This document shows, one piece after another, positions 13,642 through 49,931 of a stretch of 64,000 nucleotides of DNA; within the stretch, counting starts at the first letter, position 1, and each line of letters opens with the position of its first letter. The position numbers were made by a program, and so were the translations under genes. The stretch is from an uncultured Actinomycetes bacterium. Its GTDB lineage: Bacteria > Actinomycetota > Thermoleophilia > UBA2241. The notes beneath the pieces were generated by a model. That model was not told the origin of the DNA. It saw only the letters and a list, made by a program, of their open reading frames with translations, and ran no database searches. The stretch lies in assembly GCA_963833555.1 (NCBI GenBank), contig CAWHYB010000004.1, forward strand, positions 131,844-195,843, written 5' to 3'.

Positions 13642-15243
<1,602 letters not shown>

Positions 15244-16891: not shown

Positions 16892-16897
16892 TACAAT
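16892..16897 (+). promoter_or_regulatory. Candidate -10 box TACAAT upstream of the YmdB-like gene
   Basis: gggGTACAATaccgcc lies 52 nt upstream of ATG 16950 and directly after the nuoN terminator. Confidence 0.3.
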
Positions 16898-16949
16898 ACC
16901 GCCACCTGCGGGCTGCGGGCGCGTGAGTACGAGGGGGTCAAGCCGCACA

Positions 16950-17731
16950 ATGAGGATCCTCTTCCTGGGCGACGTGTTCGGCCAGCCGGGTCGCGACGCC
17001 GTCGTGCGGGACGCTGCCCGGACTCGTCGACGAGCACGCCGTCGAGCTTCGTGATCGCCAACGGCGAGAACGCCGCGAACGGCGCCGGCATCACCTCGAA
17101 GATCGCCCAGAAGCTGCTCGACGCCGGCGTCGACGTGATCACGACCGGCAATCATGTGTGGCGCCAGCGCGAGGTCTATCCCTTCCTGACGTCGAGCGAC
17201 CGTATCGTGCGACCCGCCAACTTCCCGCGCGTCGAGCCCGGGGCGAGGACTGACCGTGCGCGCCACCGAGGCGGCGAGCAGGTCGCTGTGATCAACCTCA
17301 TGGGGCAGGTCTTCATGGACTCCGGCATCTCGCCGTTTCGCATCGTCGACGCGCTCGTCGACGAGGCCATGACCCTGGCCGAGACGATCGTCGTCGACAT
17401 CCACGCCGAGGCGACCAGCGAGAAGGTGGCCATGGCCCAGTACCTGGACGGTCGCGTCGACGGCCGTCATCGGGCACACACACCCACGTCCAGACCGCCG
17501 ACGAGCGGGTGAGTGCGAAGGGCACGGCGGCCATCACCGACGTCGGCATGTGCGGACCTACGAGCATCGGTGATCGGCGTGCGCAGCGAGATCATCCTGC
17601 GGCGGTTCCTTACCGAGTTGCCGGTGCAGTTCGAGGTCGCCGACGGCGACGTGCGCATCGACGGCGTCCTGGTCGACCAGCGGTGGCCGGTCGGGCGACC
17701 GCGATCGAGACGGATCGAGCTGCGCTGTTGA
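16950..17731 (+). pseudogene. ymdB: YmdB-family metallophosphoesterase (2',3'-cyclic-nucleotide phosphodiesterase-like), frameshifted
   Basis: MRILFLGDVFGQPGRDAV...; IANGENAANGAGITSKIAQKLLDAGVDVITTGNHVWRQREV; VAVINLMGQVFM; VVDIHAEATSEKVAMAQYLDGRV; ITDVGMCGP; VIGVRSEIILRRFLTELPVQFEVA. Confidence 0.8.
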
Positions 17732-17838
17732 TGCCGATGCTAGCCGGAAACAGTGTTGGCGGAGACCCGCACCCGGGTAGGCTGGCGCAATCATCCGCGC
17801 ATGCGGGCGACCCGCCGGACGAGGGGGTCCTGAAGGCT

Positions 17839-19378
17839 ATGGCCGACGGCATCGTGAAGAAGAGGACGTACGTTGCGCCGCCCCAGCAAGGCGGGGTCGG
17901 CGCGGCCGCCCTGTCGATTGACGAGTCGCTCAACCCCAGCGCCGGCGGCATCAGCAACCGGCGCGCCCTCGTCACTCTCGCGGCCGACGTGATCGCGCTC
18001 GCCATCACGATGCTTCTGGCGCTCATCCTGCTGCCTGTGATCCCGCACCTGCCGGTGTTCGGCCGTGCCTTGGCCGACTTCGCCGAGGTCCGTCCGCCGC
18101 TCCTGGCGATCCTGTGCTGATGGTGCCCTGGACGATCAGTGTGATGTACGGCTACGGCTTGTATCGCAGCTCGGCGCGCAACATCAACGGCTGGGTGTTC
18201 TCCGAGGGCCTGCGAGGCCTCACGGCACTGTCGGTCGCCTCGTGGAGCGTCCTGGTCTCATGCTTCTTCTGGCCGGCTCGACCGACGCCCTCGGCTTCAT
18301 AGCGGTGTTCTGGGGCATCTCGGCGGTGCTCGTCCCGGTGACTCGCTCGGCTGGGCGCGCGGCGTTCTGGCAGAGCTCCCGCCTGTCGGAGCGCACGCTC
18401 ATCGTCGGCGCCGGCGCCGTCGGTCATCTTCTGGCCGAGAAGATCGCCAAGCACTCCCGAGTACAACCTCAGGCTCGTCGGCTACCTCGACGATGGTGAG
18501 CCGTTCGGCGTAAGTCGCAGCCGCACTGTGCCCGTCGTGGGCCGCCTCGACGACCTGGACGACGTGATCGACGGCTACGAGGTCACCCGTGTCATCATCG
18601 CCTTCTCGCGGGCCCGTCACCAGCAGATCCTCGACGTCGTGCGCACCTGCGCCGATCACGGGGTGCGCGTCAATATCGTGCCGCGACTGTTCGAGATCCT
18701 TACGTCGCAGACCGCGATGGACGACGTCGAGGGCATCCCTCTGCTCGACGTCGCCCACGTCGAGCTGTCGCGCTTCAACGTGGTCGTCAAGCGGGTGTTC
18801 GACCTGGTGGTCGGCGGCTCGCTCGTCCTCCTCGCCGCGCCGCTCGTTGCGGCTGCTGGCGATCGCCGTCAAGCTCGACTCGCCGGGGCCGGTCTTCTTC
18901 CGGCAGGAGCGCATGGGGCGCGGCGGGCAGGTCTTCCGCATCTTCAAGTTGCGCTCGATGCACGTCGACGCCGAGCGCCTGCGCTACGAGCTCGCCGCGC
19001 GGAACGAGTACTCGGGACCCATGTTCAAGATGAAGCAGCGACCCCGCGCCGACCCGCGTGGGAAGGCTGCATGCGCAAGTGGAGCCTCGACGAGATGCCC
19101 CAGCTCTTCAACGTGCTGCGCGGCGAGATGAGCCTGGTCGGGCCGCGGCCGCTCTGGGTCGACGAGGCGGCGCGCTGCCGGGGCTGGACCAAGAAGCGGC
19201 TCGACATCACCCCCGGCATCACCGGCCTGTGGCAGGTCACCGGGCGCAACGACGTGCCCTTCGACGAGATGGTCAAGCTCGACTACATGTACGTCACGGG
19301 CTGGTAGCTCTCAGCTGGGACATCAAGCTGCTGATCGAGACCGTCCCGGCGGTGGTCGGCCGCCGGGGCGCCTACTGA
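17839..19378 (+). pseudogene. Polyprenyl-phosphate glycosylphosphotransferase (WbaP/EpsL-type priming sugar transferase), frameshifted
   Basis: N-terminal TM region, then TLIVGAGAVGHLLAEKIAKH, YNLRLVGYLDD, RVFDLVVGGSLVLLAAPL, KLDSPGPVFFRQERMGRGGQVFRIFKLRSM, RKWSLDEMPQLFNVLRGEMSLVGPRP, ITPGITGLWQVTGRN and WDIKLLIETVPAVV. Confidence 0.88.
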
Positions 19379-19380
19379 GA

Positions 19381-20429
19381 GTGGGTCAGCTGGGCCCCGG
19401 ACCGGGGCGGCAACGAGAGAGCGGAGGGGGCGTGGCCGACGGGGAGCCGACACGTCGCCGGATCGTCGTGACCGGCGCGGCCGGCTTCGTCGGCTCGCAC
19501 CTGGTCGACCGGCTGCTGGCGGACGGGTGCGAGGTTGTGGGCGTCGATTCGTTCGAAGACTACTACCCGCGTCGCTGGAAGGAGACCAATCTCGAAGCGG
19601 CCCGGTCGTCCGACCGGTTCACGCTGGTCGAAGACAACCTGCTGGCCCTGGCGCTCGGAAGAGGCCGACGGAGGCGGTCCGGACGGTCTCGCCCGGCTCT
19701 TCGAGGGCGCGAACTGCGTCGTGCACCTCGCCGCCCAGGCCGGCGTCCGCTCCAGCTGGGGCAGGAGCTTTCGCATCTACACCGAGAACAACGTGCTCGC
19801 CACGCAGCTCGTCCTCGAGACCTGCCGCGAGCTCGGTCGTGCCCAAGCTGGTCTACGCTTCGTCGTCGTCGGTCTATGGCGACACCGATCAGCTCCCCAT
19901 GCGCGAGGACGCCAACTGCCGGCCGGTGTCGCCGTATGGGGTCACGAAGCTGGCCGGCGAGCAGCTCTGCCGCCTTTACTGGCGCAATCACGGCGTCCCG
20001 GCGGTCTCCCTCCGCTTCTTCACGGTCTACGGTCCACGCCAGCGTCCCGACATGGCCTTCCACATCTTCCTGCGGGCGCTGTTCGAGGGCCGTCCGCTCG
20101 AGATCTACGGCGAGGGCAACCAGACCCGCGACTTCACCTTCGTGAGCGACATCGTCGACGGCATCGTGCTGGCGATGCACGGTCGTGACGGCGCCGTCTA
20201 CAACCTCGGCGGTGGCTCGCGAGTCACCCTGCTCGAGGCCATCGAGACGCTCGAGAGCGCGAGCGGGTGCAGGGCGCAGGTCAAAGGCGAGAGCGTGCAG
20301 GCCGGCGACGTCAAGCACACCTGGGCCGACCTCTCGCTGGCCACCGACGAGCTCGGCTACGCGCCGCAGGTACGACTCGACGAGGGTCTGCGGCGCGAAG
20401 CCGAGTGGCTACGGGAGCTGTCGGTCTGA
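19381..20429 (+). pseudogene. NAD-dependent epimerase/dehydratase (UDP-sugar/uronate 4-epimerase-like SDR), two +1 frameshifts
   Basis: RRIVVTGAAGFVGSHLVDRLLADGCEVVGVDSF; CVVHLAAQAGVRSSW; KLVYASSSSVYGD...VSPYGVTKLAGEQL...LRFFTVYGPRQRPDMA. Confidence 0.85.
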
Positions 20430-22193
20430 CGTTGACTGCGCCGCCTGAGCGTCCGGTCCTCGCCGGTCCAGCGCCTCGGCGTCGCGCCGGAACATCTCCA
20501 CTGTCTTGCTCGCGAGCGTCGCCCTGAACGCCAGCTTCGCGGCGGACAGGGGATTGGGTCCGGCGAAGCGGGGCGTCAGCCGATACGCAAGCCGGGACGG
20601 AAGGGCGACGCGTAGCGCCTTCATCGCGGAGACCACCAGACTGGCCACCGTGACGGGACTCTGGGAAGGCGAGGCCGCCGCGGTCAGCAGGCTGACCGCG
20701 GCGGCCTCGCCCATCACGCTCTCGATCGACGGCGAGGCAAGCGTCGCCACGACCTCCCGGACGATCTCCTGTTCGGCGAGGTAGGCCGCCGGCGCGGGCG
20801 TCGAGACGAACCGTGCGTGCGGGATGGGCCGCGTCTCGGGATCGACGATCGCCATCATCGCGCGACCGTACATGCGAAGCTCGTCCGGGAGGGACCGGAC
20901 CACACGGAAGAGGTCCCTCGCGAGCAGCGGGTTCGCGACCTCCAGGTAGCGGCACTTGATCTCGGTGAGGGGCGCGAGGCTGTTCGGGATGTAGCCCTGA
21001 TGATACATGCGGTCACGATACGCCTCGAGCCCTTCTCCGGGCCGCGGCCGCAGCCACTCCGGTACGTCTTGGTCGGCGAGGCCGAGCCGTCGTATGAGGT
21101 GCCCTTCGGGATAGTCCCGGACCATGACGGACGATCCCTGCCGGCGGGCGGCGTCCAGGGATACCGCCCGCCGCCTGCCCCCGAGGGGCTCGTCGCCCCG
21201 GATGACCCCGCTCACGCCCGCGTCGAAGAGGCCCGCCCACATGGCGCAGCCGTCGACGTAGGCGGCGAACTCGTCCGTCCTCCCCTCGCCGACCTCGACG
21301 AAGCGTTGCAGCGAGCCGGGGGCGACGGCTTGGCGGGAGTCGAGGAAGAGGTAGTCGTGGCGCGCATGGAACCGGCGGGCAAGCAGGCGGGCAACAACGG
21401 CGTCGGAGAGCGGATTCTTGGTCGACGCCCGGGTCGTCCAGGTGACGCATCGTGGCGAGCGGCCGTTCCTGACCATGAACACCAGGATCGTACGGCTGTC
21501 GAGACCGCCCGAGAGCGGCAGGAGCCAGCGCGAGGTGTCTATGTCGAGGTCCCCGCAGCTTCGCGCGACCGCGTCGCGCAGCAGTCCGAGATGCTCGTCG
21601 CGACTTCGGCGGACCGGCTCGAAGACGGCGGGTCGTTGGTCGAGGGTCGGCCTCCATGCTCGCCGGTCGAACGACAAGCAGGCGTCCGGCGGTACCCGGC
21701 GGATCCGGGAGTCCCACGAGCGATCGGGGCCGAGCGTGCCCGCCGAGAGCAACCACGCGACGGCGCTGCGGTCGAGATCGAAGCTGCCGAGGAGAGCCAC
21801 AACGGCTCGTTGTGACGTCGAGGCGATCAGCCGCTCCTCGTCCCAGGCATACCACAGTGTCCTGGAAGAGGGCACGTCCGACAGCAGTTCGACGCGATCG
21901 CTGGAGTACCTGACGAGAGCGTAGGCGCCGTCGGGGGGCTCCGCCCCGGTGATCCACCAACGCCCGGCATCCCCGAGCAGGCCGCCCAGCAGCACGCCGC
22001 CGTCGGCTTCGCGAATGCCGTCACCGGAGGGATTCACGATGGTGACGCAGAGGCCCTGAGCCTCGAGGATGCGGGGCGGGCGGGCTACGATGTTGCTCGG
22101 CGAGATGCGCCTCGCGACCATCGCCATCCGCTGCCGGGCGTCGTCGCGCGGTGCCCGCCCCGCCCGCCCGCACTCCAGAATGAGATCCGCCAC
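20409..22193 (-). CDS. Asparagine-synthetase-family (PP-loop ATP pyrophosphatase) protein lacking the N-terminal catalytic Cys
   Basis: Intact 594-aa ORF. The GTG start is preceded by GGAGG. The N-terminus is M-A-D-L-I-L-E rather than M-C-G-I. The PP-loop is WLLPLSGGLDSRTILV. It is a paralog of 24539..26254. Confidence 0.75.
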   Translation of the reverse strand: MADLILECGRAGRAPRDDARQRMAMVARRISPSNIVARPPRILEAQGLCVTIVNPSGDGIREADGGVLLGGLLGDAGRWWITGAEPPDGAYALVRYSSDRVELLSDVPSSRTLWYAWDEERLIASTSQRAVVALLGSFDLDRSAVAWLLSAGTLGPDRSWDSRIRRVPPDACLSFDRRAWRPTLDQRPAVFEPVRRSRDEHLGLLRDAVARSCGDLDIDTSRWLLPLSGGLDSRTILVFMVRNGRSPRCVTWTTRASTKNPLSDAVVARLLARRFHARHDYLFLDSRQAVAPGSLQRFVEVGEGRTDEFAAYVDGCAMWAGLFDAGVSGVIRGDEPLGGRRRAVSLDAARRQGSSVMVRDYPEGHLIRRLGLADQDVPEWLRPRPGEGLEAYRDRMYHQGYIPNSLAPLTEIKCRYLEVANPLLARDLFRVVRSLPDELRMYGRAMMAIVDPETRPIPHARFVSTPAPAAYLAEQEIVREVVATLASPSIESVMGEAAAVSLLTAAASPSQSPVTVASLVVSAMKALRVALPSRLAYRLTPRFAGPNPLSAAKLAFRATLASKTVEMFRRDAEALDRRGPDAQAAQSTSDRQLP

Positions 22194-22440
22194 TCAGCCT
22201 CCGATTGAGAGCCGCGGTATTCTTGCCCCGCCTCGACGGCGAGGTCAAGTGCGGCGTGCTTCTCGGCCAGTGCTCAGCCCGGACTCCGGACGTTCGTGGC
22301 GGCCCGATAACCGCGCGACCGGCACTACGGCCAATCAGACTGTCCCGCGCGTCGTGTCAGGTATCAAGCCGCCGCACGCCGTTGGCGTGGCCCCCGCGAC
22401 GCTTCTCGAGGCAAGCGGCAAGGGTCGCATCGAGCGGGAC

Positions 22441-23760
22441 TCACTCCCGGCGGCGCTTGACCTTGGCCAGCTCGTGACGGAGCTCCTGTCTGACGCCAGT
22501 CGAGAGCTCGCGGAGGGCGGGTGCGGGGTCGGCGAAGCTGACCACAGCGTCGACCCGCACGTTACGCAGCCCCGCGACGCAGGTCTCGAGACTCATCTGG
22601 CGGCGCACCAGCTCGAGCAGGCTGTCCCACGATTCGCGCGGCAGGTCGAGCCACCGTACGCCATCGGTCTGCCGGCCGACCTCGACCGGCCGGCCCAGGG
22701 CGTCCATGTAGGCGATCCACGAGAGGTTGACGCCCGCGGCGGTCGCCAGCGCGTGGTGCAGCCAGTGTCGGGCGTTGACCTCCATGAGCTTCAGCCGCCC
22801 GTCACGAGGGTCGCGCTTGAACTCGGTGCCGGAGACGCCGTGGAACGAGAGCTCGTTGAGCAGGCGCATGCTGACCTCGGCGACCTCGTCGACCCACAGG
22901 CTTTCGGCTATCCGCGATTCGCCCCACGACCGCGGGTGCTGCCGCACCTTCCGCGAGACGAACATCCCGAGCGGCCGTGAGGCTGCGTCCTGATAGGCGC
23001 CGAAGGTGTAGAAGTCCTGGTCGTCGCCCGGGATGACCTCCTGGAACATCAGCGGGCCGCAGACCTGGGCCTTCTCGTAGGCGGCGCCGACGTCGTCGGC
23101 CGTCGGCGCCAGCACCACCTTGACCCCGAATCGGCGGCGCATCTCCTGATGGCGGAGCGGCTTGAACAACGCCGGGAACGGCACCTCGGCGACGGCTCGC
23201 TCCAGATCATCGGGACCGTGCACAAAGGCAGTCTTCGGCGTGTCGACGCCCGCATCCCAGGCCGCCTGCATCTGCAGCTCTTTGTCGGCGAGGCGCTGCA
23301 TCACCGCCCAGCGCGCCAGCGGGATGATGTAGTAGCGCTCGAGGCGTTCGGCGTGCCGCGAGATCATCCAGACATGGTCGTCGAAGCCGGGGAAGAGGAC
23401 CGCCCGCTGCGGCAGGGCGGCGCCCAGCCGCTCGAGGTCCTCGATGAGGGCTTCTTCGTCGTAGCGGGGGTCGTGGCACGTCAGCGGGATCGCGTAGCGC
23501 GAGGCGAGGCCGATCGAGTTCGCCTCGCTGTCCATGGCGATCATCGGCACGCCGAGGCGGCCGAGGTCGCGCAGGACGCCGAGCCCGATGCCCGTTGAGA
23601 CGGGCACGACGACTGCGGGCGGGGTCACCGCCATGCGGCGCTGGACGTCGGGGTCACGGATCGATTCCAGCGACGGAGAGGTCCGCGCCCGGTATCTGGT
23701 GATCCACGACATCGGCGGTATCCCTTCGCTCGAGATCAGACTCTGCCGACAGGCTAGCAT
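22441..23760 (-). CDS. ATP-grasp carboxylate-amine ligase (COG3919 / D-aspartate-ligase-like); start uncertain
   Basis: Intact 439-aa ORF. ...LGVPMIAMDSEANSIGLASRYA...DKELQMQAAWDAGVDTPKTAF...FPALFKPLRH...MFQEVIPGDDQDFYTFGAY...FHGVSGTEFKRDPRDGRLKLMEVNARHW. Confidence 0.75.
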   Translation of the reverse strand: MLACRQSLISSEGIPPMSWITRYRARTSPSLESIRDPDVQRRMAVTPPAVVVPVSTGIGLGVLRDLGRLGVPMIAMDSEANSIGLASRYAIPLTCHDPRYDEEALIEDLERLGAALPQRAVLFPGFDDHVWMISRHAERLERYYIIPLARWAVMQRLADKELQMQAAWDAGVDTPKTAFVHGPDDLERAVAEVPFPALFKPLRHQEMRRRFGVKVVLAPTADDVGAAYEKAQVCGPLMFQEVIPGDDQDFYTFGAYQDAASRPLGMFVSRKVRQHPRSWGESRIAESLWVDEVAEVSMRLLNELSFHGVSGTEFKRDPRDGRLKLMEVNARHWLHHALATAAGVNLSWIAYMDALGRPVEVGRQTDGVRWLDLPRESWDSLLELVRRQMSLETCVAGLRNVRVDAVVSFADPAPALRELSTGVRQELRHELAKVKRRRE

Positions 23761-23829
23761 GTCGCTCCGGGGTTGCGGGACAGGCTCGCCTCCCGAGACA
23801 ACACTTCTGGAGCCGTCGCCCTGACTCTA

Positions 23830-23848
23830 TCTCGGTCGACGACCGAGA
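23830..23848. promoter_or_regulatory. Perfect 19-bp palindrome in a divergent promoter region (candidate operator)
   Basis: TCTCGGTCGaCGACCGAGA lies between the minus-strand ATP-grasp start (23760) and the plus-strand acetyltransferase start (23971). No gene ends here, so a terminator role is unlikely. Confidence 0.3.
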
Positions 23849-23970
23849 GTCGCCTTGGGATGCCCCCCGTCTCGTCGCACTGCCCGGTACCCCCTCGTCG
23901 TGCGATACTGGCCCAATCTCCGGCGAGCGCCGGCGAGGCGAAGGGTCACGGCCGACAGGGGGGACGTCGA

Positions 23971-24512
23971 ATGGGATGGCTGAGCGACTTCAAGTGCGAC
24001 CTGCAACGGTACCTGGACGACGGGCTGACCCCCGGCCGGGCCCTCCTGACGCAGCAGGGCCTCTGGGCAAGCCTCGAATACCGGCTCGCCCGTGAGGGAC
24101 GCAAGCTCCCGCTGATGGGACCGGTCTTCGTCGCCTCGCAGAAGCTCGTCGAGACGGTGACCGGCATCTCGATCGGCCACGGGGCCACCATCGGACCGGG
24201 GCTGTGGATCACCCACTTCGGCGGCATCATCGTCCACGACACCGCCGTGCTCGGCGGCGGCTGCCATCTGTGCCAGGGCGTCACCTTCGGCCGGGGGTAC
24301 GGCAGCGGCGGCTACGGCGCGCCGGTGATCGGCGACGACGTCTACGTGGACCGAACGCCGCCGTGTTGGGCAGGATCACGGTCGGCGACGGCGTCCGCAT
24401 AGGCGCGAACAGCGTGGTGACCAGAGATGTGCCCAGCAACGCGGAGGTCTGGCCGGCCCCGGTCGTCGTGAGCCCCAGCGGCGATGGGTCGGACGAGGGC
24501 GCCACGACGTGA
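23971..24512 (+). pseudogene. Left-handed beta-helix (hexapeptide) O-acetyltransferase, serine-acetyltransferase-like; one frameshift near 24350
   Basis: MGWLSDFKCDLQRYLDDG...ISIGHGATIGPGLWITHFGGIIVHDTAVLGGGCHLCQGVTFG..APVIGDDVYV, then the shift, then GPNAAVLGRITVGDGVRIGANSVVTRDVP. Confidence 0.75.
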
Positions 24513-24538
24513 CGACGGGCCTCTCGGCCGCGACCCGA

Positions 24539-26254
24539 TCACTTGATCGGCTCCGAGAGGATCGTGGCGTCGTCGCGCAGGATCGTCGCCATGCGCGACG
24601 CGATGTACATGCGGTAGGCCAGGGCCCTGGTCTCGAGATGCGGGAGCGGGGCCGGGCGCACGGCGCGTACCAGCCGGCGCGGCACGACCGCTCTGACCCG
24701 CTTGCGCAGGCGTCGTTTGGCCTCGCTCAGGGGCCGCTCGAGGTCGGCGACGACGGCTGCGAGCGCCGCCGACGAGAACACCCGTCGCCCGTCGTCGGAC
24801 GAGAGTTCCGTCAGGAGCTCGCTCCGCACGGCCTCTCTGGCGAGAAACCGGTCGAGCGGCTCGTCGGCGCCCCGGACGGCGAACGGCACCTCGGGCACCA
24901 GCCGGTCCACCATGCGTTCGAACCCGTACCGCATGTGGCGCAACCGGTCGGGCAGCTCCGAGGCCGCCGTCACGACCGCGCGTGCGAAGAGCGGGTTGAC
25001 CACCTCCGCGTAGGCGCATTTGACTTCGTTGAAGGCGGCCATGCAAGCGGGCAGTTCGAACGTGTTGTAGATCCGATCGCGATAGTGGTCGAGCGTCTCG
25101 CCGTCGCCCATGAACAGTGCCTCCGGCGGGTGCTGGGGAGCGGGTGAGAGGGCGTGGATGAGCTCGCTCTCCGGATAATCGCTCACCAGCGTCATCTCGT
25201 GGACGATGCTGCGCGTCACGAAGTCGTTGATCGGCTCGAACGGGAAGCCCCAACCCGGCGAGTCGCCGCGGATGATGACGGAGATGCCGGCGTCGAAGAT
25301 GTGACGCCAGGCGTCGAAGCCGTCGGTGTAGCCGCTGAAGTCCTCGACCCGACCCTCGCCGGCTCTCAGAAACCGTGAGAAGCCGTCGCGCACCGACCGG
25401 TCGCCGGGGTCGAGCAGCAGGTACTCGTGACGCAGACCGAAGCGCTCCGCCAGCCTCCGCGCGATGGCGGCGTCGTTGTCCGGTTCATCCAGGGACTTCC
25501 CCAGCCCCCACGTGAGGCAGGTGATGGGCGCGCCGGCGTCGGCGAGCCCTGCGAGCAGCGATCTGCTGTCGTGCCCCCCCGAGAGGGTGAGGGCCGCCTG
25601 CGCGCCGTTCAGGCGGAGCGACGCGCAGGCGGCGAAGATGCTCTCTCGAAGGCGGACGAGCTGCTCCTCTTCTGGCAGCGCCTGGGGTACGTACCGGAGC
25701 TCGCTGGACGCGATGCTGAGCGACCAGCTGCGGCGGTCGAGGCGTAGACACGTGGCGGCCGGCACGCGCCGCAGGCGCTCGTCCCATCCGTTCTGCGGCC
25801 CGAGATTGCCGGCCGCCACCAGCCAGGACACGGCCTCGGCGCACGGCTCGTACGAGCCGAGCAGGGCGACCAGTGCCCGCTGCGAGGTCGAGGCGAAGAA
25901 GGTGTGGTCGGTGTGCAGATACCAGACGGTGCGCGACGCGAATACGTCGGTCACCAGCTCGACGCGATCGTCGTCGTGGCGCACGATGGCGAAGGTGCCA
26001 TCGGGAGGCGGCGAGTCGAGTGCGGACCAGTCGGCGTCCTCGAAGAGGACGCCGAGCAGGATGCCGCGATCGTCCGCCTGGACGCTGGCTACCGGGTTGA
26101 CGACCACGCGGGCGAATCCCGGTTCATCGTAGACGTGCGGAGGATGCGGCTCGATGTTGTCGGGTGCAAGATGTCGCGCGAGGGTCGTCAGTCTCGCGCC
26201 GTCCGTCGAAGCGCGCGACTGATCGCGGCGCACGATCAGGATGAAGCCCGCCAA
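24539..26254 (-). CDS. Asparagine-synthetase-family protein lacking the N-terminal catalytic Cys (second paralog)
   Basis: Intact 571-aa ORF. The TTG start is preceded by GAGGAGGG. The N-terminus is M-A-G-F-I-L-I-V. The PP-loop is ALTLSGGHDSRSLL. It is collinear with 20409..22193, for example FASTSQRALVALLGS versus IASTSQRAVVALLGS. Confidence 0.75.
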   Translation of the reverse strand: MAGFILIVRRDQSRASTDGARLTTLARHLAPDNIEPHPPHVYDEPGFARVVVNPVASVQADDRGILLGVLFEDADWSALDSPPPDGTFAIVRHDDDRVELVTDVFASRTVWYLHTDHTFFASTSQRALVALLGSYEPCAEAVSWLVAAGNLGPQNGWDERLRRVPAATCLRLDRRSWSLSIASSELRYVPQALPEEEQLVRLRESIFAACASLRLNGAQAALTLSGGHDSRSLLAGLADAGAPITCLTWGLGKSLDEPDNDAAIARRLAERFGLRHEYLLLDPGDRSVRDGFSRFLRAGEGRVEDFSGYTDGFDAWRHIFDAGISVIIRGDSPGWGFPFEPINDFVTRSIVHEMTLVSDYPESELIHALSPAPQHPPEALFMGDGETLDHYRDRIYNTFELPACMAAFNEVKCAYAEVVNPLFARAVVTAASELPDRLRHMRYGFERMVDRLVPEVPFAVRGADEPLDRFLAREAVRSELLTELSSDDGRRVFSSAALAAVVADLERPLSEAKRRLRKRVRAVVPRRLVRAVRPAPLPHLETRALAYRMYIASRMATILRDDATILSEPIK

Positions 26255-26328
26255 GGGACCCTCCTCAGGCTAGTTCGACACGGACTCGTTCGACCAGCGA
26301 CCCGGCCTTCCTTGCGGGATCACGATGG

Positions 26329-26727
26329 TCAGCCATCGTCGGTCGCCCTCGTCGGCCCTCGGCGGGGGTAGAAGGACGCGAGCAGCACCGGCGCCGCCAG
26401 TGCGAACGGCAGGACGAGCCACGCGAGATCGTGGTGGTGCCGCTCGACGGCCAGCCGGTAGACGATCGCCATGGCCGACAGCGCCGTGAACAGGATCAGC
26501 ACCTCAACCACGAGCCGCTGCCCCCAGGGGTCCCGGGCTGCGCGCAGGGCGCCGATCCCCATCGCGAACAACGCCGCGGCGAGGATCTTGCCCGAGGTCG
26601 TCGCCGCCAGGTCACCCGAACGTCCCAGGTCGAGTAGCAGCGCCAGCGCGATCGCCACGCTGCCGAGGAAGTAGACGACGAGCAGCACCCTGATGACCCC
26701 GAACCGGTCGGCGGTACCGATCGTCAT
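26329..26727 (-). CDS. Small integral membrane protein of unknown function (about 4 TM helices)
   Basis: 132 aa: VIRVLLVVYFLGSVAIALALLL..ILAAALFAMGIGAL..VVEVLILFTALSAMAIVY..WLVLPFALAAPVLLASF. Its 4-nt overlap with the upstream SGNH gene suggests translational coupling. Confidence 0.55.
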   Translation of the reverse strand: MTIGTADRFGVIRVLLVVYFLGSVAIALALLLDLGRSGDLAATTSGKILAAALFAMGIGALRAARDPWGQRLVVEVLILFTALSAMAIVYRLAVERHHHDLAWLVLPFALAAPVLLASFYPRRGPTRATDDG

Positions 26728-27821
26728 GGCACTCGTGGCGGCACCAGTCCCAGCTGGAGCAGCCTCGCGTAGAGCGCGCGCGCCACGACTGCATCACCGT
26801 ACGCGCTCCAGTGGCCGCCGTCGAAGCCCTCGAACTTGCGGTGGTTGGCCTCGTACGCCTGCAGGAAGACCGGTTGCAGGTCCAGGAAGTGCACGTTCGG
26901 GAATGGGCGCGCGGCCTCGAGCAGCGCCTCGTATTCGGGGCGCGGGTCCGGCGAGGAGCTACCCGCGTAGATCCTCGTGCGGTCCGTGTCGACCACGAAG
27001 ACGAACGACCGACCGGGATGCTCGGCGACCAGTCTCGCGACCATCCAGCGCGCCGCTCTCCTGACCAACGGCGACGGCGTCGCCGGCTCGGTCGGAGCCG
27101 CGCCCCCGGGGTTGAGGTTGACGTCTGCGACCACCGCGTTCTTCTGGCCCCAGGTGATGCCCAGGTTCTCCCGCACGTAGCGTACGATCGCGCTCTGCCG
27201 CAGCAGGCGGCTCTTCTTGCCGAAGACGTAGTGGACGGGCGGCCGCAACTCACGGAATCCGGACCCATCTGCGACTATCTGCCAGGCGTACGCTGTCTTC
27301 ACCCCGTTCTCCTGCAGACTGTCTGCTATGTCGTGCCAGTCGATGAAGATGACGTAGGTGTCGGGAGCGAAGTGCGTCCCCACGTAGCGCGACAAGGCCA
27401 CGTACTGCTCCAGGTACCAGCCGGAGCCGCCGAAGGCGTAGACGTCGACCTGCTGATCGGCCAGTGCATGCAGGTCGACGTCGACATGTTGATTCACATT
27501 GACCGAGATCGCCTGGATGTAGGAGTCGCCCAGGATCGCGATGCGTGGCTTGTCGCCGGCACTCGGCGGCGCATAGTCGAACGGGCTGTTCCAGCCAGCC
27601 TTGTTGATGTGCCAAGTGGTCGGATGAAGGCCAAGCCGCCCGTGAGTGGCCACCCCCGATGCGACCCACGTTGGATCGAATCTGAAGATCATGCCGCCGG
27701 TGCTCATGTAGTTGGCGGGCAGCATGGTCGCCGGCACCACGGTGCGGAAGAAGACTTCGGCTACCACTGCCAGAATCACGATGAAGAGCGCGCAACGGGC
27801 GACGAACTTGACCATCGGCAT
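26724..27821 (-). CDS. SGNH/DltD/AlgJ-like membrane-anchored acyl-transfer protein (partner of the MBOAT)
   Basis: I prefer the ATG at 27821 (TGATG overlap with the MBOAT stop) over the longer ORF-track start at 27968. MPMVKFVARCALFIVILAVVAEVFF is a TM anchor, and ...PRIAILGDSYIQAI is a GDS-type motif. Confidence 0.6.
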   Translation of the reverse strand: MPMVKFVARCALFIVILAVVAEVFFRTVVPATMLPANYMSTGGMIFRFDPTWVASGVATHGRLGLHPTTWHINKAGWNSPFDYAPPSAGDKPRIAILGDSYIQAISVNVNQHVDVDLHALADQQVDVYAFGGSGWYLEQYVALSRYVGTHFAPDTYVIFIDWHDIADSLQENGVKTAYAWQIVADGSGFRELRPPVHYVFGKKSRLLRQSAIVRYVRENLGITWGQKNAVVADVNLNPGGAAPTEPATPSPLVRRAARWMVARLVAEHPGRSFVFVVDTDRTRIYAGSSSPDPRPEYEALLEAARPFPNVHFLDLQPVFLQAYEANHRKFEGFDGGHWSAYGDAVVARALYARLLQLGLVPPRVP

Positions 27822-29257
27822 CAGAACTGGACGTAGACGAACGGCCGTGCGCCGTGATTCCCGAGGACTAGCACGGCAAGGAGAATGGCGCAGTAGGCCG
27901 CCCAGCGAGCCGCGACCGGCAGGCGCGAGACGGCCCGGAGAGCGTACGTCTGCTCCCGCTGGAGCCATTCGACGAGCAGCAGGGCCGCACAGAGAGCGAG
28001 GTAGGGCAGATAACTGGTGTCGAAGCCGCCACGTGGGCCCGTGACGAACCGTGCGATGTAGCCAGCCGCCTGTGCCAGCGAGTCGGCCCTGAAGAACACC
28101 CAGGCCAAGATCGCCAGGAGGAACGTGCCCAGCACGGCTGCCGCCTCACGAGGGCTTGGCAGCAGACGGCCGTGTGCCACCGTGTCGCGCGGCGTCTTGT
28201 GCCCAAGCAGGATCCCCGGGACCTGGTAGAGGCCGTTCAGAAGGCCCCACACGATGAACGTCCAGTTCGCCCCGTGCCAGATGCCGATGATCAGGAAGCT
28301 GGCGAGGACGTTGAAGATACGCCGCGGCGTCTTGACCCTGCTGCCGCCCAGCGGGATGTAGACGTAGTCGCGGATCCAGAATGAGAGGGACATGTGCCAC
28401 CGTCGCCAGAACTCGGCGGTGCTGCGTGAGAAGTACGGGTTGGCGAAGTTCAGCGGCAGCTCCAGCCCGAACAACTTGCCGATGCCGATGGCCATGTCGG
28501 AGTAGCCCGAGAAGTCCGCATAGAGCTGGACGGCGAAGCAGACCGCCGCCACGAACAGGTTGATGCTCGACATGGTCTGGTAGGTGGCGAACGCGTGATT
28601 GACGAGCGGGGCGAGAGTGTCAGCGACCAGCACCTTCTTGGTGAAGCCCCAGAGCACCTGGCGCAATCCATCACGGGAACGGGCGTCGTCGAAAAGGCGC
28701 GTCGTCTCGTACTGAGGCAGCAGCAGCCTGGCCCTGCCGATTGGGCCGGCGGTCAACTGCGCGAAGAAGCTCGCAAAGGCGAGGTAGGCGAGGACATCGC
28801 GCGTCGCATGCATGTGCCGGCGGTAGATGTCGAGTGGGTAGGTCAGCATCTGGAACGTGTAGAAGCTGAGTCCCAGCGGCAGCAGGATCCGGAGGGCATA
28901 GGTCGGCGCGCCCATGCCGAGGCCGTTGAGCAGCGACGTCATTGAATCCAAGAAGAAGTTGGCGTATTTGAAGTAGCCGAGGATGCCGAGGGCGAGGACC
29001 AGGGTGGCCACCAGGACAGTCTTGCGCAGCCGCGGATCGTCGCTGCGCTCCAGGATCTGTCCGGACAGGTAGCCGATGACTGACACGGCCACGAGCAGCG
29101 CCAGGAGTCGCCAGTCCCAGTAGGCGTAGAAGGCATAGCTGGCCAGGATGAGCAGCAGGTTCTGGGCTGGCGCGCCGCGGCGGAGCTTGCCGACCAGCCA
29201 GTAGGCCACGAAGACGATCGGAAGAAAGACGACAAACGCGAACGAGACGAACTGCAT
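27821..29257 (-). CDS. MBOAT-family membrane O-acyltransferase (AlgI/DltB-like)
   Basis: Intact, polytopic 478 aa. FANPYFSRSTAEFWRRWHMSLSFWIRDYVYIPLGGSR..IFNVLASFLIIGIWHGANW contains the MBOAT His motif. Confidence 0.88.
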   Translation of the reverse strand: MQFVSFAFVVFLPIVFVAYWLVGKLRRGAPAQNLLLILASYAFYAYWDWRLLALLVAVSVIGYLSGQILERSDDPRLRKTVLVATLVLALGILGYFKYANFFLDSMTSLLNGLGMGAPTYALRILLPLGLSFYTFQMLTYPLDIYRRHMHATRDVLAYLAFASFFAQLTAGPIGRARLLLPQYETTRLFDDARSRDGLRQVLWGFTKKVLVADTLAPLVNHAFATYQTMSSINLFVAAVCFAVQLYADFSGYSDMAIGIGKLFGLELPLNFANPYFSRSTAEFWRRWHMSLSFWIRDYVYIPLGGSRVKTPRRIFNVLASFLIIGIWHGANWTFIVWGLLNGLYQVPGILLGHKTPRDTVAHGRLLPSPREAAAVLGTFLLAILAWVFFRADSLAQAAGYIARFVTGPRGGFDTSYLPYLALCAALLLVEWLQREQTYALRAVSRLPVAARWAAYCAILLAVLVLGNHGARPFVYVQF

Positions 29258-47893: not shown

Positions 47894-48070
47894 ACAACGC
47901 GTGCCGGAGGCGTCCAACGCCGGCGGCGACCCTTGTCTGCTACCATTGCGTCAGCGCGGGCGGTCCAACAGCAGATCGTCGGCTCCCGCGCCGAGTGTGC
48001 AAGTCCGACATCGGCCGGCCCAGGCGGGCGGCGGGCACGCGGGCGGACGTCTCAGGCGGAGGAGGGTCCA

Positions 48071-48802
48071 ATGGAATCTTCGACAACCGTCCCCAACCGG
48101 CCGCAGTCGTCGGAGATCAACCCCGGCCCGGGATTCCGCATCAAGACGACCTTCGAGCGGCCGGCGGTCGAGCTCATGCACAAGCTCGGCGAGTTCCCGT
48201 CGCCCGAGATCTCGGACCAGCTCAACCGGTTATACGCCGTGACGCCGGACATCCGGTGCCTCACGGGGCCGGGTCACCGGCTGGTCGGACCGGCCTGTAC
48301 CGTGAAGGTGTATCCGGGCGACAACCTGATGGTCCACAAGTCGCTCGACATCGCCCAGCCGGGCGACGTGGTGGTCGTCGACGCCGGAGCATCGCGCATG
48401 AACGCGGCCCTCGGCGACCTGATCTCGACCAAAGCCAGGCACCGCCAGATCGCCGGTTTCGTCGTCGACGGGTACGTGCGCGACCTTCCCGACATCCTGG
48501 AGCTCGACTTCCCGGTCTTCGCCCGCGGCACCACCTCGATCGGTCCCCTGCACCGGGGCCCGGGCGAGATCAACTACCCCATCTGCTGCGGCGGGGTCGT
48601 GGTGAACCCCGGCGACGTGGTCGTCGCCGACGCCTTCGGGGTCGTCATGGTCCCGCGCGACAACGCCGAGGACGTCCTCGAGCGCCTCGTCGCCACCAAG
48701 GCCAGGCTCGCCGACTATCTCGCGGGCGTGAAGAAGGGCGTGTTCTCGAACAAGTGGGTCGACGACCTGCTGGCCGCCGGCGACTGCCCCATCGAAGACT
48801 AG
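48071..48802 (+). CDS. RraA-family protein (4-hydroxy-4-methyl-2-oxoglutarate aldolase / oxaloacetate decarboxylase-like)
   Basis: I chose ATG 48071 (after GGAGGAGGG). GPACTVKVYPGDNLMVHKSLDIAQPGDVVVVDAGASRMNAALGDLISTKARHRQIAGFVVDGYVRD...PVFARGTTSIGP. Confidence 0.8.
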   Translation: MESSTTVPNRPQSSEINPGPGFRIKTTFERPAVELMHKLGEFPSPEISDQLNRLYAVTPDIRCLTGPGHRLVGPACTVKVYPGDNLMVHKSLDIAQPGDVVVVDAGASRMNAALGDLISTKARHRQIAGFVVDGYVRDLPDILELDFPVFARGTTSIGPLHRGPGEINYPICCGGVVVNPGDVVVADAFGVVMVPRDNAEDVLERLVATKARLADYLAGVKKGVFSNKWVDDLLAAGDCPIED

Positions 48803-48820: not shown

Positions 48821-49930
48821 TTGGACACGCTGCTCGATCGGACGGTTCGCTCGCGCGCGCTCTGGCACAAGCTGGAGAAGCACCTGCCGAAGCGCACCCG
48901 CGCCCGCGGCGACGGGCGGCGGGAACCGGACTTCCACAGGACGGCCTGGGGAGATGCCGCCGCTGCCGAGGGCGTGGCGGTGACCGACATCGGAGGAGGG
49001 TTCTTCGAGATCCAGTGTCCGACGTCGGTCCTGCGTGTGTACAGGAACATCACCTCTCTCGACGACGCCGTCACGGCCGCCATCGCCGCCGACAAGCCGC
49101 TCGTCCACGAGCTGCTCGCCCGGCACGGCTTGCCAGTCCCGTCACATTGCGTGTGCGGCTACCGGGAGGTAGCGACCGCCTGGGCCTTCGTCGGCCGGCG
49201 GGACCGGCCGTGCGTCGTGAAGCCCGCCCACGGCACGGGCGGGGGCACCGGCATCACCATGGACGTCTCGACCAGGAAGCGGCTTGTGGCCGCGATGGGA
49301 CGCGCCGGCAGTTACTGCGAGAAGCTCGTCATCGAGGACCAGCTCGCCGGCGACAACTACCGTCTGCTCTACCTCGACGGCAGGCTGATCGACGCTCTGC
49401 TCAGGCGCCCGCCGCAGATCATCGGCGACGGGGTCTCCACGGTCAGGGAGCTGGTCGAGGCGCGGGAGCCCGGGGCCTCGGCGCCACGCCCGGGGCCCTG
49501 GGTGGCACGCGGCGCCGCATGGCGGTTCGGAGGCCTGCTGAGGGAGACCGGCCGCGGGCCGGACGACGTCCCCGCGGCCGGCGAGTCCGTCCGGCTGCGG
49601 CGGGTCGTCAACATGCACGACCGCCAGGACAACGAGTCGGTCACCGGCACCATCTCCGCCGCGGTGGTCGAAGCGGGCGCCCAGGCCGCCGCGGCCGTCG
49701 GCGTCCGTCTGGCGGGGGTCGACATCATCACGCCCGACCGCTCTGTCCCGCTCGCCGAGGCCGGGGGCGCGATCATCGAGGTCAACACCGGGCCGGGGTT
49801 GCACTACCACTACATGACGTCCGGCGAGCCCACCCCGGTCGCGTCGCTCATCCTGCGGCAGCTGTGTGAGACGGACGTCCGTCAGGGCCGGCCGACGAAG
49901 GCCCGGAGTGGGCGTGGACCGACCACCTGA
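48821..49930 (+). CDS. ATP-grasp ligase resembling the N-terminal ATP-grasp module of cyanophycin synthetase / RimK
   Basis: DKPLVHELLARHGLPVP...RPCVVKPAHGTGGGTGIT...VIEDQLAGDNYRLLYLDGRLIDALLRRPPQIIGDGVSTVRELVEA...VGVRLAGVDIITPD...AIIEVNTGPGLHYH. Confidence 0.7.
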   Translation: MDTLLDRTVRSRALWHKLEKHLPKRTRARGDGRREPDFHRTAWGDAAAAEGVAVTDIGGGFFEIQCPTSVLRVYRNITSLDDAVTAAIAADKPLVHELLARHGLPVPSHCVCGYREVATAWAFVGRRDRPCVVKPAHGTGGGTGITMDVSTRKRLVAAMGRAGSYCEKLVIEDQLAGDNYRLLYLDGRLIDALLRRPPQIIGDGVSTVRELVEAREPGASAPRPGPWVARGAAWRFGGLLRETGRGPDDVPAAGESVRLRRVVNMHDRQDNESVTGTISAAVVEAGAQAAAAVGVRLAGVDIITPDRSVPLAEAGGAIIEVNTGPGLHYHYMTSGEPTPVASLILRQLCETDVRQGRPTKARSGRGPTT

Positions 49931-49931
49931 C

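What the first reader, a model, noticed from the sequence alone, without database searches (positions are those of the whole stretch)
20409..26254. Two paralogous Asn-synthetase-like enzymes without the glutaminase Cys, flanking an ATP-grasp ligase and an LbH acetyltransferase
Both AsnB-like proteins keep the PP-loop (SGGLDS / SGGHDS). Both begin M-A-D-L / M-A-G-F instead of M-C-G-I, so they cannot use glutamine through the Ntn cysteine.

Cys-less AsnB homologues elsewhere act as ATP-dependent amide- or lactam-forming enzymes, for example lasso cyclases and beta-lactam synthetase-type chemistry.

This locus also holds three ATP-grasp ligases, giving five ATP-dependent carboxylate-activating enzymes in total. 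That suggests extensive amide decoration of the glycan (amidated or aminoacylated uronic acids), or a peptide-like moiety of unknown structure.
Basis: partly seen in the sequence, partly recalled or inferred. Interest (0 to 1): 0.6.

Follow-up and report, generated by a model that had tools for sequence, protein, structure and literature searches.

The report
Cysteine-less AsnB-like enzymes in glycan locus
Two intact paralogous genes belong to a widespread, unnamed branch of the asparagine-synthetase family that has lost its glutamine-splitting cysteine and sits almost only in surface-polysaccharide gene clusters, so they are good untested candidates for enzymes that put amide-linked groups on bacterial glycans.

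Summary
A1 (20409-22193, minus strand, 594 aa) and A2 (24539-26254, minus strand, 571 aa) are intact and 37% identical over their full length. Both keep the PP-loop (SGGLDS, SGGHDS) and both start M-A. In-frame stops lie 0 and 5 codons upstream, so no upstream start can restore a cysteine.

The missing cysteine is a family trait. Residue 2 is Ser or Ala in members from at least 8 phyla, and never the canonical Met-Cys-Gly. A confident AF2 model (pLDDT 92) matches beta-lactam synthetase, TsnB9, AsnB and carbapenam synthetase over both domains. No curated model claims the family, although it has at least 738 clusters at 50% identity.

34 of 44 related loci carry polysaccharide-synthesis genes. 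None of the annotated loci has lasso or other RiPP partner genes. In Thermoleophilia the family has expanded to 2-4 clustered paralogues, with a conserved ATP-grasp partner. In locus L006 the RraA and ATP-grasp cassette, which lies 22 kb away in the window, directly abuts these genes.

My best reading is glutamine-independent, adenylate-forming amide synthetases that act on a glycan or its side chain. This is inferred; the substrates are unknown. The window encodes no uronic-acid dehydrogenase. It is an uncharacterised variant of a known enzyme kind, of moderate interest.

The parts
20409..22193 (-). A1: Cys-less AsnB-family paralogue (594 aa, GTG start, MADL..., PP-loop SGGLDS). It belongs to the Thermoleophilia 'A1-type' subclade.
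24539..26254 (-). A2: Cys-less AsnB-family paralogue (571 aa, TTG start, MAGF..., PP-loop SGGHDS). It belongs to the 'A2-type' subclade. The AF2 model has pLDDT 92.4.
22441..23760 (-). ATP-grasp ligase 1. The true start is probably near 23712. It is the conserved neighbour of A2-type genes in L001, L005, L006, L007, L009, L010 and L011.
23971..24509 (+). Hexapeptide (LbH) CysE/EpsC/WcaB-like acetyltransferase on the opposite strand, with one frameshift near 24355.
26329..26727 (-). Small 4-TM protein between the SGNH gene and A2, in the same transcription direction. A 60% identical homologue lies next to a family paralogue in L012.
26724..27968 (-). SGNH / AlgX / DltD-like protein (start uncertain). 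It is 57% identical to its counterpart in syntenic L005.
27821..29257 (-). MBOAT (DltB/AlgI-like) acyltransferase at the head of the MBOAT-SGNH-TM-A2 gene string. It is 77% identical to its L005 counterpart.
47933..48802 (+). RraA-like aldolase/decarboxylase. Its L006 orthologue (73% identity) lies directly beside the A2-type gene.
48821..49930 (+). ATP-grasp ligase 2.
49866..51167 (+). ATP-grasp ligase 3, a 28%-identical paralogue of ATP-grasp 1.
51216..52271 (+). Ldh_2-family 2-oxo-acid/imine reductase that closes the side-chain cassette.
18528..20429 (+). Initiating sugar transferase (Bac_transf) and SDR epimerase, both split by frameshifts and convergent on A1. The same order occurs in L002.
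22335..22430 (-). 31-codon ORF in the ATP-grasp/A1 gap. I considered it as a lasso precursor and rejected it, because it is not conserved in any related locus.

Best explanation
A1 and A2 are intact, anciently diverged paralogues of an unnamed clade of the asparagine-synthetase B / PP-loop ATP-pyrophosphatase superfamily.

Shown:
- The clade keeps the two-domain AsnB architecture and the ATP-binding PP-loop.
- Every member lacks the N-terminal nucleophile cysteine of class-II glutamine amidotransferases. Residue 2 is Ala or Ser.
- The clade occurs in surface-polysaccharide biosynthesis loci of many phyla.

Inferred:
- Each enzyme uses ATP to adenylate a carboxylate, releasing PPi. An amine nitrogen then attacks the acyl-AMP to give an amide.
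- The nitrogen comes from free ammonia or from an amine or amino-acid substrate, not from glutamine hydrolysed by the enzyme's own N-domain.
- The carboxylate or the amine belongs to a sugar nucleotide, a lipid-linked glycan or a small acid side chain.
- In Thermoleophilia, 2-4 specialised paralogues act in series with ATP-grasp ligases. ATP-grasp 1 is the fixed partner of the A2 type. A 2-oxo-acid aldolase/reductase cassette contributes as well. Together they build an amide-linked, possibly peptide-like or hydroxy-acid, substituent on a polymer exported by an ABC (Wzm/Wzt) transporter.
For: - Starts and stops.
- Paralogy: 37% identity, E = 3e-108.
- Family-wide N-terminus M-[AS]-x-hydrophobic(3)-x-C-x-R. 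Residue 2 is Ser in 22 and Ala in 21 of 47 full-length members. Among 117 of the best 145 representatives whose N-terminus fits this motif it is Ser in 55 and Ala in 54, and none of the 145 has a canonical Met-Cys-Gly start.
- SGGxD of the PP-loop and R231 are invariant. An acidic residue (D331) aligns with AsnB Glu348.
- The AF2 model has pLDDT 92.4 and pTM 0.92. Foldseek gives full-length matches to beta-lactam synthetase (E = 1e-17), TsnB9 (TMq 0.65), E. coli AsnB, carbapenam synthetase and human ASNS.
- Family size: 738 clusters at E <= 1e-30.
- Glycan hallmarks occur in 34 of 44 loci. Pfam-annotated examples come from Bacteroidota (NeuB, TupA-like ATP-grasp), a delta-proteobacterium and Bacillota, and Acidobacteriota and Latescibacterota.
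- ATP-grasp 1 is adjacent in 7 Thermoleophilia loci at 47-70% identity.
- In L006 the RraA, ATP-grasp 2 and ATP-grasp 3 genes are contiguous with A2-type and A1-type genes.
- A1-type and A2-type are separate clades with 100/100 support.
- Established knowledge: E. coli AsnB Cys1 mutants lose glutaminase activity but keep ammonia-dependent synthesis. The Cys-less relatives beta-lactam synthetase, carbapenam synthetase and lasso cyclases are adenylate-forming amide or lactam synthetases.
Against: - No enzyme of this clade has been assayed, so substrate and nitrogen donor are unknown.
- Sequence similarity to characterised relatives is confined to the PP-loop region: Pfam Asn_synthase 27-29 bits over about 70-80 residues, and profile against PDB sequences best E = 3e-5.
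- Alignment of the N-domain to AsnB is not statistically significant.
- The window holds no Ugd/WecC-type dehydrogenase or NeuB, so no sugar carboxylate is made within the locus.
- The strong conservation of the N-domain (15 of 28 invariant residues) could mean a second, unknown activity rather than a relic.
- 10 of 44 loci showed no glycan hallmark. These include short contigs and contig ends, but also full-length flanks that lack my reference families.
Confidence: 0.6

Rival explanations
1. Lasso-peptide or other RiPP macrolactam cyclases. The 31-codon ORF at 22335-22430 would be the precursor.
For: The best NCBIfam hit is NF033561, the albusnodin/ikarugamycin-family macrolactam cyclase. Lasso cyclases also lack the Cys. 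A small co-oriented ORF exists in the gap.
Against: - The NF033561 score is 48-52 bits against a cut-off of 300.
- No leader peptidase (transglutaminase-like B protein) or PqqD/RRE appeared in any of the loci I annotated.
- The small ORF has no counterpart in 44 related loci.
- In L001 the ATP-grasp and the A1-type gene are convergent, so no equivalent gap exists.
- The context is glycan synthesis in 34 of 44 loci.
Confidence: 0.03
2. Donor-activating enzyme for the adjacent MBOAT-SGNH membrane acyl-transfer module. A2 would adenylate an acyl or aminoacyl donor that the MBOAT passes across the membrane to the polymer. This would be a Dlt-like system with an AsnB-type rather than a DltA-type adenylating enzyme.
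For: MBOAT, SGNH, the small TM gene and A2 form one co-directional, tightly packed string. Start/stop overlaps occur, and only 74 nt separate the TM gene from A2. The MBOAT-SGNH-A2 order is kept in L005 at 77%, 57% and 62% identity. The MBOAT's best family hit is DltB at 156 bits. An MBOAT also lies 4.7 kb from the family gene in delta-proteobacterial L024.
Against: - The MBOAT is present in only 2 of 44 related loci.
- Other A2-type genes (L004, L006, L007) have no MBOAT nearby. Their constant partner is ATP-grasp 1.
- No carrier protein gene was seen.
- The DltB score is far below the 375-bit cut-off, and AlgI- or PatA-type O-acetylation explains the MBOAT/SGNH pair without A2.
Confidence: 0.1
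3. Amidine-forming rather than amide-forming enzyme: conversion of an N-acetyl group of an amino sugar or nonulosonic acid to an acetamidino group, as proposed for the PP-loop proteins PseA, WbuX and AglX.
For: PP-loop chemistry fits activation of an acetamido oxygen. The two Autumnicola paralogues sit in a NeuB/CMP-transferase nonulosonic-acid locus. No glutaminase is needed if ammonia is supplied from elsewhere.
Against: No hit to the WbuX/PseA-type NCBIfam model was returned. No HisH/HisF-like ammonia-supplying partner genes were seen in the annotated loci. The window has no NeuB. The fold matches are to two-domain AsnB-type enzymes, not to single-domain WbuX-type proteins.
Confidence: 0.1
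4. Ordinary glutamine-dependent uronic-acid amidotransferases (WbpS- or EPS-locus AsnB type) with mis-called starts.
For: The setting is a glycan locus, and automated pipelines name some homologues 'asparagine synthetase B (glutamine-hydrolysing)'.
Against: - In-frame stops lie directly upstream of both starts.
- Ala or Ser at residue 2 is conserved in independent assemblies from at least 8 phyla.
- No GATase_6/7 domain is hit.
- True MCG-type AsnB genes coexist with a family member in the same Latescibacterota locus and match A2 only at the PP-loop.
Confidence: 0.02
5. Catalytically dead scaffold or regulator that only binds nucleotide or glycan.
For: No activity is known. The N-domain is unusually conserved.
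Against: The PP-loop, the acidic residue at the AsnB Glu348 position and further C-domain residues (D261, D311, R329, E386, R394) are invariant across phyla. This is the pattern expected of an active adenylating site.
Confidence: 0.05

Closest known systems
Beta-lactam synthetase (1JGT/1MBZ) and carbapenam synthetase CarA (1Q15/1Q19)
   Same: Two-domain AsnB fold with no N-terminal Cys and an intact PP-loop. These are the best Foldseek matches (E = 1e-17 to 1e-15). The mechanism is acyl-adenylation followed by N-attack.
   Different: Only 12-17% identity. The known enzymes close an intramolecular lactam in antibiotic pathways. Here the setting is a glycan locus, the N-domain is strongly conserved, and there is a roughly 130-residue helical C-terminal extension.
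TsnB9 hydroxyamidotransferase (7YLZ)
   Same: Highest structural coverage (TMq 0.65) and the only PDB sequence reached by the family profile (E = 3e-5). It is an AsnB-type enzyme that amidates a non-amino-acid carboxylate.
   Different: TsnB9 keeps the glutaminase-type N-domain chemistry (from my own knowledge; not tested here). It acts in trichostatin biosynthesis. Identity is 11%.
Asparagine synthetase B and EPS/O-antigen AsnB paralogues (WbpS-type, exosortase-linked amidotransferases)
   Same: Same superfamily and fold, the same PP-loop, and a frequent place in polysaccharide loci.
   Different: Those proteins start Met-Cys-Gly and have GATase_6/7 domains. A1 and A2 do not. Both kinds coexist as separate genes in L046.
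Lasso peptide cyclases (McjC type; NF033561)
   Same: Cys-less AsnB relatives, and the best NCBIfam hit.
   Different: The score is one sixth of the cut-off. There is no B protease, no RRE and no conserved precursor.
NAGGN pathway (AsnO amidotransferase with Ngg acetyltransferase/ATP-grasp ligase)
   Same: The same three enzyme types sit side by side: an acetyltransferase, an ATP-grasp ligase and an AsnB-type enzyme. This suggests 'ligate, then amidate' logic. There is a weak TIGR03104 hit.
   Different: The score is 16.5 bits against a cut-off of 570. AsnO is glutamine-dependent. The acetyltransferase here is an LbH protein, not a GNAT. The product there is a free dipeptide osmolyte, not a glycan substituent.
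Cj1438 ATP-grasp amidoligase of the Campylobacter jejuni HS:2 capsule, and TupA-type teichuronopeptide ATP-grasps
   Same: They offer a precedent that glycan carboxylates are amidated with amines by ATP-dependent ligases encoded in the glycan locus (PMC11800379). A TupA-like ATP-grasp lies in the Autumnicola locus.
   Different: A different fold and mechanism: acyl-phosphate in an ATP-grasp, rather than acyl-AMP in a PP-loop enzyme.

Membership tests
Asparagine synthetase B, glutamine-hydrolysing (TIGR01536; Pfam GATase_6/7 + Asn_synthase) | N-terminal nucleophile Cys (Met-Cys-Gly start) | tested here: not met
   The starts are MADL and MAGF, with stops directly upstream. Ala or Ser occupies this position family-wide.
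Asparagine synthetase B, glutamine-hydrolysing (TIGR01536; Pfam GATase_6/7 + Asn_synthase) | Class-II glutaminase domain recognised by GATase_6/7, with glutamine-binding Arg49, Asn74-Gly-Glu76 and Asp98 | tested here: not met
   No GATase hit at E <= 0.01. In a collinear but non-significant hhalign, the NGE segment falls in a gap of the family.
Asparagine synthetase B, glutamine-hydrolysing (TIGR01536; Pfam GATase_6/7 + Asn_synthase) | PP-loop SGGxDS and the synthetase-domain fold | tested here: met
   SGGLDS and SGGHDS are present. Pfam Asn_synthase scores 27.5-28.8 bits (cut-off 21) over the PP-loop region only. Foldseek matches 1CT9 at E = 1e-15.
Asparagine synthetase B, glutamine-hydrolysing (TIGR01536; Pfam GATase_6/7 + Asn_synthase) | Equivalog score above the curated cut-off | tested here: not met
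   21.6 and 33.6 bits against a cut-off of 267.
Lasso-peptide / macrolactam cyclase (NF033561) | Model score above the cut-off | tested here: not met
   47.8 and 51.9 bits against a cut-off of 300.
Lasso-peptide / macrolactam cyclase (NF033561) | Neighbouring leader peptidase (B), RRE/PqqD and a conserved precursor gene | tested here: not met
   None appears in the annotated loci. The candidate 31-codon ORF is not conserved.
Beta-lactam / carbapenam synthetase | Cys-less two-domain AsnB fold | tested here: met
   Foldseek E = 1e-17 to 1e-15 over 540-577 alignment columns.
Beta-lactam / carbapenam synthetase | Sequence-level orthology and a beta-lactam pathway context | tested here: not met
   12-17% identity. 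The profile against 1JGT gives E = 0.014, at the PP-loop only. The neighbours are glycan genes.
EPS/O-antigen glutamine-dependent amidotransferases (WbpS-like, exosortase-associated AsnB) | MCG start and GATase domain. Placement in a glycan locus is the only shared feature. | tested here: not met
   No NCBIfam hit to such models was returned. The canonical L046 genes start MCGI and align to A2 only over 53 residues at the PP-loop. The glycan-locus setting itself is met.
N-acetylglutaminylglutamine amidotransferase AsnO (TIGR03104) | Equivalog score above the cut-off | tested here: not met
   16.5 bits against a cut-off of 570.1.
ATP-grasp superfamily (for the gene at 22441-23760) | Three-domain ATP-grasp fold | tested here: met
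   AF2 pLDDT 87. Foldseek matches PurK, biotin carboxylase, PurT and L-amino-acid ligase 3VOT at E = 6e-18 to 5e-16.
Adenylate-forming amide synthetase activity (function, not family) | ATP to AMP + PPi turnover dependent on a carboxylate and an amine | not testable with these tools
   This needs enzyme assays.

The most novel reading that the evidence does not exclude
The Cys-less AsnB paralogues, three ATP-grasp ligases, a 2-oxo-acid aldolase (RraA or HpcH) and an Ldh_2 reductase form one ribosome-independent assembly line. It would build an oligo-amide (peptide-like or hydroxy-acid) side chain on a Thermoleophilia surface glycan, using alternating acyl-phosphate and acyl-AMP ligations. More generally, the family would be the missing enzyme class that joins amino acids or amines to glycan carboxylates, or acids to de-N-acetylated amino sugars, in many phyla. 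A sub-variant is that A2 feeds the adjacent MBOAT/SGNH module as a Dlt-like donor-activating enzyme.
Probability: 0.2. Interest if true: 0.7.

Novelty: new variant of a known kind. Interest (0 to 1): 0.45.

Why it matters
Many bacterial and archaeal glycans carry amino acids or amines amide-linked to sugar acids (examples: PMC11407970, PMC12993940). The enzymes that make these links are known in very few cases, such as the ATP-grasp Cj1438 of C. jejuni.

This family is compact and easy to recognise: an M-[AS]-x start, a PP-loop, about 575 aa and at least 738 sequence clusters. It is tied to polysaccharide loci in at least 8 phyla and has no curated model or assigned function. That makes it a concrete candidate class to test. 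Cultured carriers exist for genetics (five Geothrix species and Autumnicola musiva).

It also corrects database names that call these proteins glutamine-hydrolysing asparagine synthetases.

Tried and rejected
- The genome search and the fetch from genomes were shut. I could not look for a canonical asnB or a UDP-sugar dehydrogenase elsewhere in this genome (notice).
- A single-sequence search of A2 against PDB sequences found nothing.
- The family profile against PDB sequences reached only TsnB9 and PP-loop fragments.
- hhalign of the family against E. coli AsnB aligned only the PP-loop-to-SGEG stretch (probability 16%). The N-domain-only comparison was not significant (probability 0.3%). Residue equivalences in the N-domain are therefore tentative.
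I rejected it.
- An Rfam scan of 20000-30000 gave only sub-threshold noise.
- The promoter/terminator scan was no better than shuffles.
- The ORFs at 29617-30789 and 31550-32608 are not ATP-grasps. They are secreted beta-helix-type proteins.
- An exact-sequence look-up of the Geothrix campi protein found no record.
Full report
**Observation.** The window has about 68-70% G+C. On the minus strand lie two long ORFs with coding-type GC3: 20409-22193 (A1, 594 aa) and 24539-26254 (A2, 571 aa).
- A1 begins at a GTG immediately preceded by an in-frame TGA, with a GGAGG 5 nt upstream.
- A2 begins at a TTG with an in-frame TAG five codons upstream and a GAGGAGG. No upstream start can supply a cysteine.
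- The products start MADLILECGR and MAGFILIVRR and contain SGGLDS and SGGHDS.
- They are 37% identical over their whole length (E = 3e-108).
- Between them lie an ATP-grasp gene (22441-23760, minus) and, on the plus strand, a CysE/EpsC-like hexapeptide acetyltransferase (about 23971-24509). The acetyltransferase is broken by one frameshift near 24355.
- This assembly is indel-prone. nuoL/M/N, ymdB, the initiating sugar transferase, an SDR epimerase, both UDP-GlcNAc 2-epimerases and the Wzt ATPase are also split. A1 and A2 are intact and align end to end with homologues.

**What the proteins are.** Curated libraries barely recognise them.
- Pfam Asn_synthase scores 27-29 bits on about 70-80 residues around the PP-loop, with no GATase domain.
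- The best NCBIfam hit is the albusnodin/ikarugamycin macrolactam-cyclase model at 48-52 bits (cut-off 300). AsnB TIGR01536 scores 22-34 bits (cut-off 267).
- A2 alone finds no PDB sequence. A family profile reaches only TsnB9 (E = 3e-5) and PP-loop fragments.
- An AF2 model built on 21 homologues is confident (pLDDT 92.4, pTM 0.92). Foldseek matches whole two-domain AsnB-type enzymes: beta-lactam synthetase (E = 1e-17), TsnB9 (TMq 0.65), E. coli AsnB, carbapenam synthetase and human ASNS.
- hhalign places the family's R329-G330-D331 on the AsnB S-G-E348-G motif (low probability).
- An N-domain comparison is collinear. M-A-G falls on M-C-S, TD..ASR..WY on RD..G..PLY, and ASTSQRAL on ASEMKAL, with the AsnB N74-G-E76 segment in a gap. 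It is not statistically significant.

**The family.**
- A word-seeded search found 117 clusters, mostly from metagenomes and Thermoleophilia MAGs. A few carry the pipeline name 'asparagine synthetase B (glutamine-hydrolysing)'.
- An exhaustive profile search found 738 representatives at E <= 1e-30, nearly all matched end to end at about 575 aa.
- A scan of species-representative genomes gave 41 loci. They come from Thermoleophilia, Holophagaceae (including five cultured Geothrix species), Solibacteraceae, Latescibacterota, a Chromatiales MAG, delta-proteobacteria, an Eubacteriales MAG, Cloacimonadota, Fimbriimonadaceae and the cultured flavobacterium Autumnicola musiva.
- In 47 full-length members, residue 2 is Ser (22) or Ala (21). 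Residue 8 is Cys in 36 and residue 10 is Arg in 40.
- Among 117 of the best 145 representatives whose N-terminus fits the family motif, residue 2 is Ser in 55 and Ala in 54. None of the 145 has a canonical MCG start.
- Twenty-eight residues are invariant. They include SGG-D of the PP-loop, R231, D261, D311, R329-G330, E386 and R394. Fifteen lie in the N-domain.

The loss of the Ntn cysteine is therefore ancient and fixed. The adenylating site looks preserved, and the N-domain is under strong constraint.

**Phylogeny.** A maximum-likelihood tree separates three groups:
- a mixed-phylum clade;
- a single-copy Acidobacteriota clade;
- a Thermoleophilia radiation with several well-supported subclades.

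A1 and A2 fall in different subclades with 100/100 support. Thermoleophilia loci carry 2-4 clustered paralogues. The A1/A2 pair is an old functional split, not a recent duplication.

**Context.** The window locus encodes an ABC-transporter-dependent glycan pathway:
- Bac_transf, SDR epimerases, two WecB-like 2-epimerases, GT4 and GT2 transferases, and Wzm/Wzt;
- secreted beta-helix proteins;
- an MBOAT-SGNH-small-TM string that runs directly into A2.

By homology to annotated reference proteins, 34 of 44 related loci carry glycan hallmarks: GT4 in 22, polysaccharide deacetylase in 14, SDR epimerase in 13, Wzx in 10, Wzy in 10 and PGA_cap in 9. Pfam annotation of individual loci confirms this:
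- Autumnicola: two paralogues among NeuB, CMP-transferase, deacetylase, GNAT and a TupA-like ATP-grasp.
- A delta-proteobacterium and an Eubacteriales MAG: GT4, Wzy, hexapeptide transferases, deacetylases and Wzz.
- Geothrix: GT4, DUF2334, Wzx, PGA_cap and Wzy.
- Latescibacterota: GT4, glucuronyl C5-epimerase, methyltransferases, and two canonical MCG-type AsnB genes in the same locus. These resemble A2 only at the PP-loop.

No locus I annotated showed a lasso B-peptidase or an RRE.

**Links to the other ATP-dependent ligases.**
- ATP-grasp 1 has orthologues (47-70% identity) next to family genes in seven Thermoleophilia loci. In L007 its start overlaps the stop of the A2-type gene.
- L005 repeats the window's order MBOAT-SGNH-A2-x-ATP-grasp 1, with a PGA_cap gene in place of the acetyltransferase and an HpcH-type aldolase upstream.
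- In L006, orthologues of ATP-grasp 3 (59%), ATP-grasp 2 (41%) and RraA (73%) lie immediately beside the A2-type gene. Then follow ATP-grasp 1, another ATP-grasp 2-like gene, an epimerase and two A1-type genes.

The cassette at 47933-52271 in the window therefore belongs functionally with the AsnB-like genes. ATP-grasp 1 has a confident ATP-grasp fold resembling PurK, biotin carboxylase, PurT and an L-amino-acid ligase.

**Mechanism.**
- Shown: PP-loop ATP-pyrophosphatase architecture, absence of the glutaminase nucleophile, polysaccharide-locus residence, and conserved partnership with ATP-grasp ligases.
- Inferred from AsnB, beta-lactam synthetase, carbapenam synthetase, TsnB9 and lasso cyclases (established knowledge): a carboxylate is adenylated and the acyl-AMP is captured by nitrogen to form an amide.
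- Because Cys1 is essential for glutamine hydrolysis in class-II amidotransferases, the nitrogen must be free ammonia or a substrate amine.
- Which partner is the sugar remains open. Geothrix and Solibacteraceae loci encode a WecC-like UDP-ManNAc dehydrogenase, so a sugar acid is available there. The window encodes no Ugd/WecC or NeuB. Here the acid may come from elsewhere in the genome or from the RraA/Ldh_2 small-acid cassette.
- The frequent deacetylases raise the reverse polarity: an acid joined to a de-N-acetylated amino sugar.

**Rivals.**
- Lasso or RiPP cyclase: rejected. The score is far below the cut-off, partner genes are absent, and the 31-codon ORF is not conserved.
- Mis-started glutamine-dependent amidotransferase: refuted.
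- A Dlt-like role feeding the MBOAT module: possible, but the MBOAT is present in only 2 of 44 related loci.
- Acetamidino formation: not excluded.
- A dead scaffold: unlikely, given the invariant catalytic-site residues.

The proteins are members of a sizeable, unnamed, Cys-less clade of the AsnB superfamily dedicated to glycan loci. I class it as a new variant of a known enzyme kind, with unknown substrate. Interest is moderate. The result is not startling to a specialist, but it offers a testable candidate class for amide-linked glycan decoration and corrects misleading automated names.

Noticed in passing
window 20668-20711: A perfect 44-nt palindrome (21-nt arms, 2-nt spacer) lies inside the variable C-terminal part of the A1 coding sequence, encoding GEAAAVSLLTAAAS. 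Similar perfect short-loop palindromes occur at 348-388, 16834-16872 and 47244-47283. Their origin is unknown: mobile hairpin, binding site or assembly artefact.
   Followed up: partly
window 23971-24509, 33902-35088, 40431-41756, 44389-45525, 12003-20429: Many genes are split by single frameshifts: the LbH acetyltransferase, both WecB-like 2-epimerases, Wzt, nuoL/M/N, ymdB, Bac_transf and an SDR epimerase. A1, A2, the ATP-grasps and the MBOAT are intact. This looks like an indel-prone long-read assembly.
   Followed up: partly
L046 15849-17717 and 18729-20615: A Latescibacterota EPS locus holds one Cys-less family member and two canonical MCG-start AsnB genes (GATase_6/7 + Asn_synthase), with a glucuronyl C5-epimerase and a carbamoyltransferase. 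The two AsnB kinds are not redundant.
   Followed up: partly
L005 10126-11391; L022 11306-12478: A PGA_cap (CapA-like, poly-gamma-glutamate capsule family) gene accompanies the family in 9 of 44 loci, in both Thermoleophilia and Geothrix. In L005 it sits exactly where the window has the LbH acetyltransferase.
   Followed up: no
window 26329-26727; L012 7338-7958: The small 4-TM protein between SGNH and A2 has a 60% identical homologue downstream of a family paralogue in another Thermoleophilia MAG that shows no MBOAT in the part of the contig held.
   Followed up: no
window 47933-52271; L005 4003-4797: Two unrelated pyruvate-aldolase folds (RraA-like in the window and L006, HpcH/HpaI in L005) occur in these loci, together with an Ldh_2 reductase in the window. 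This hints at a 4-hydroxy-2-oxo-acid-derived substituent.
   Followed up: no
window 22219-22248 (minus): A sigma-70-like TTGACC-18-AAGAAT site lies 26 nt upstream of the A1 start, in the 247-nt gap. The scan found no more sites than shuffled sequence gives.
   Followed up: no
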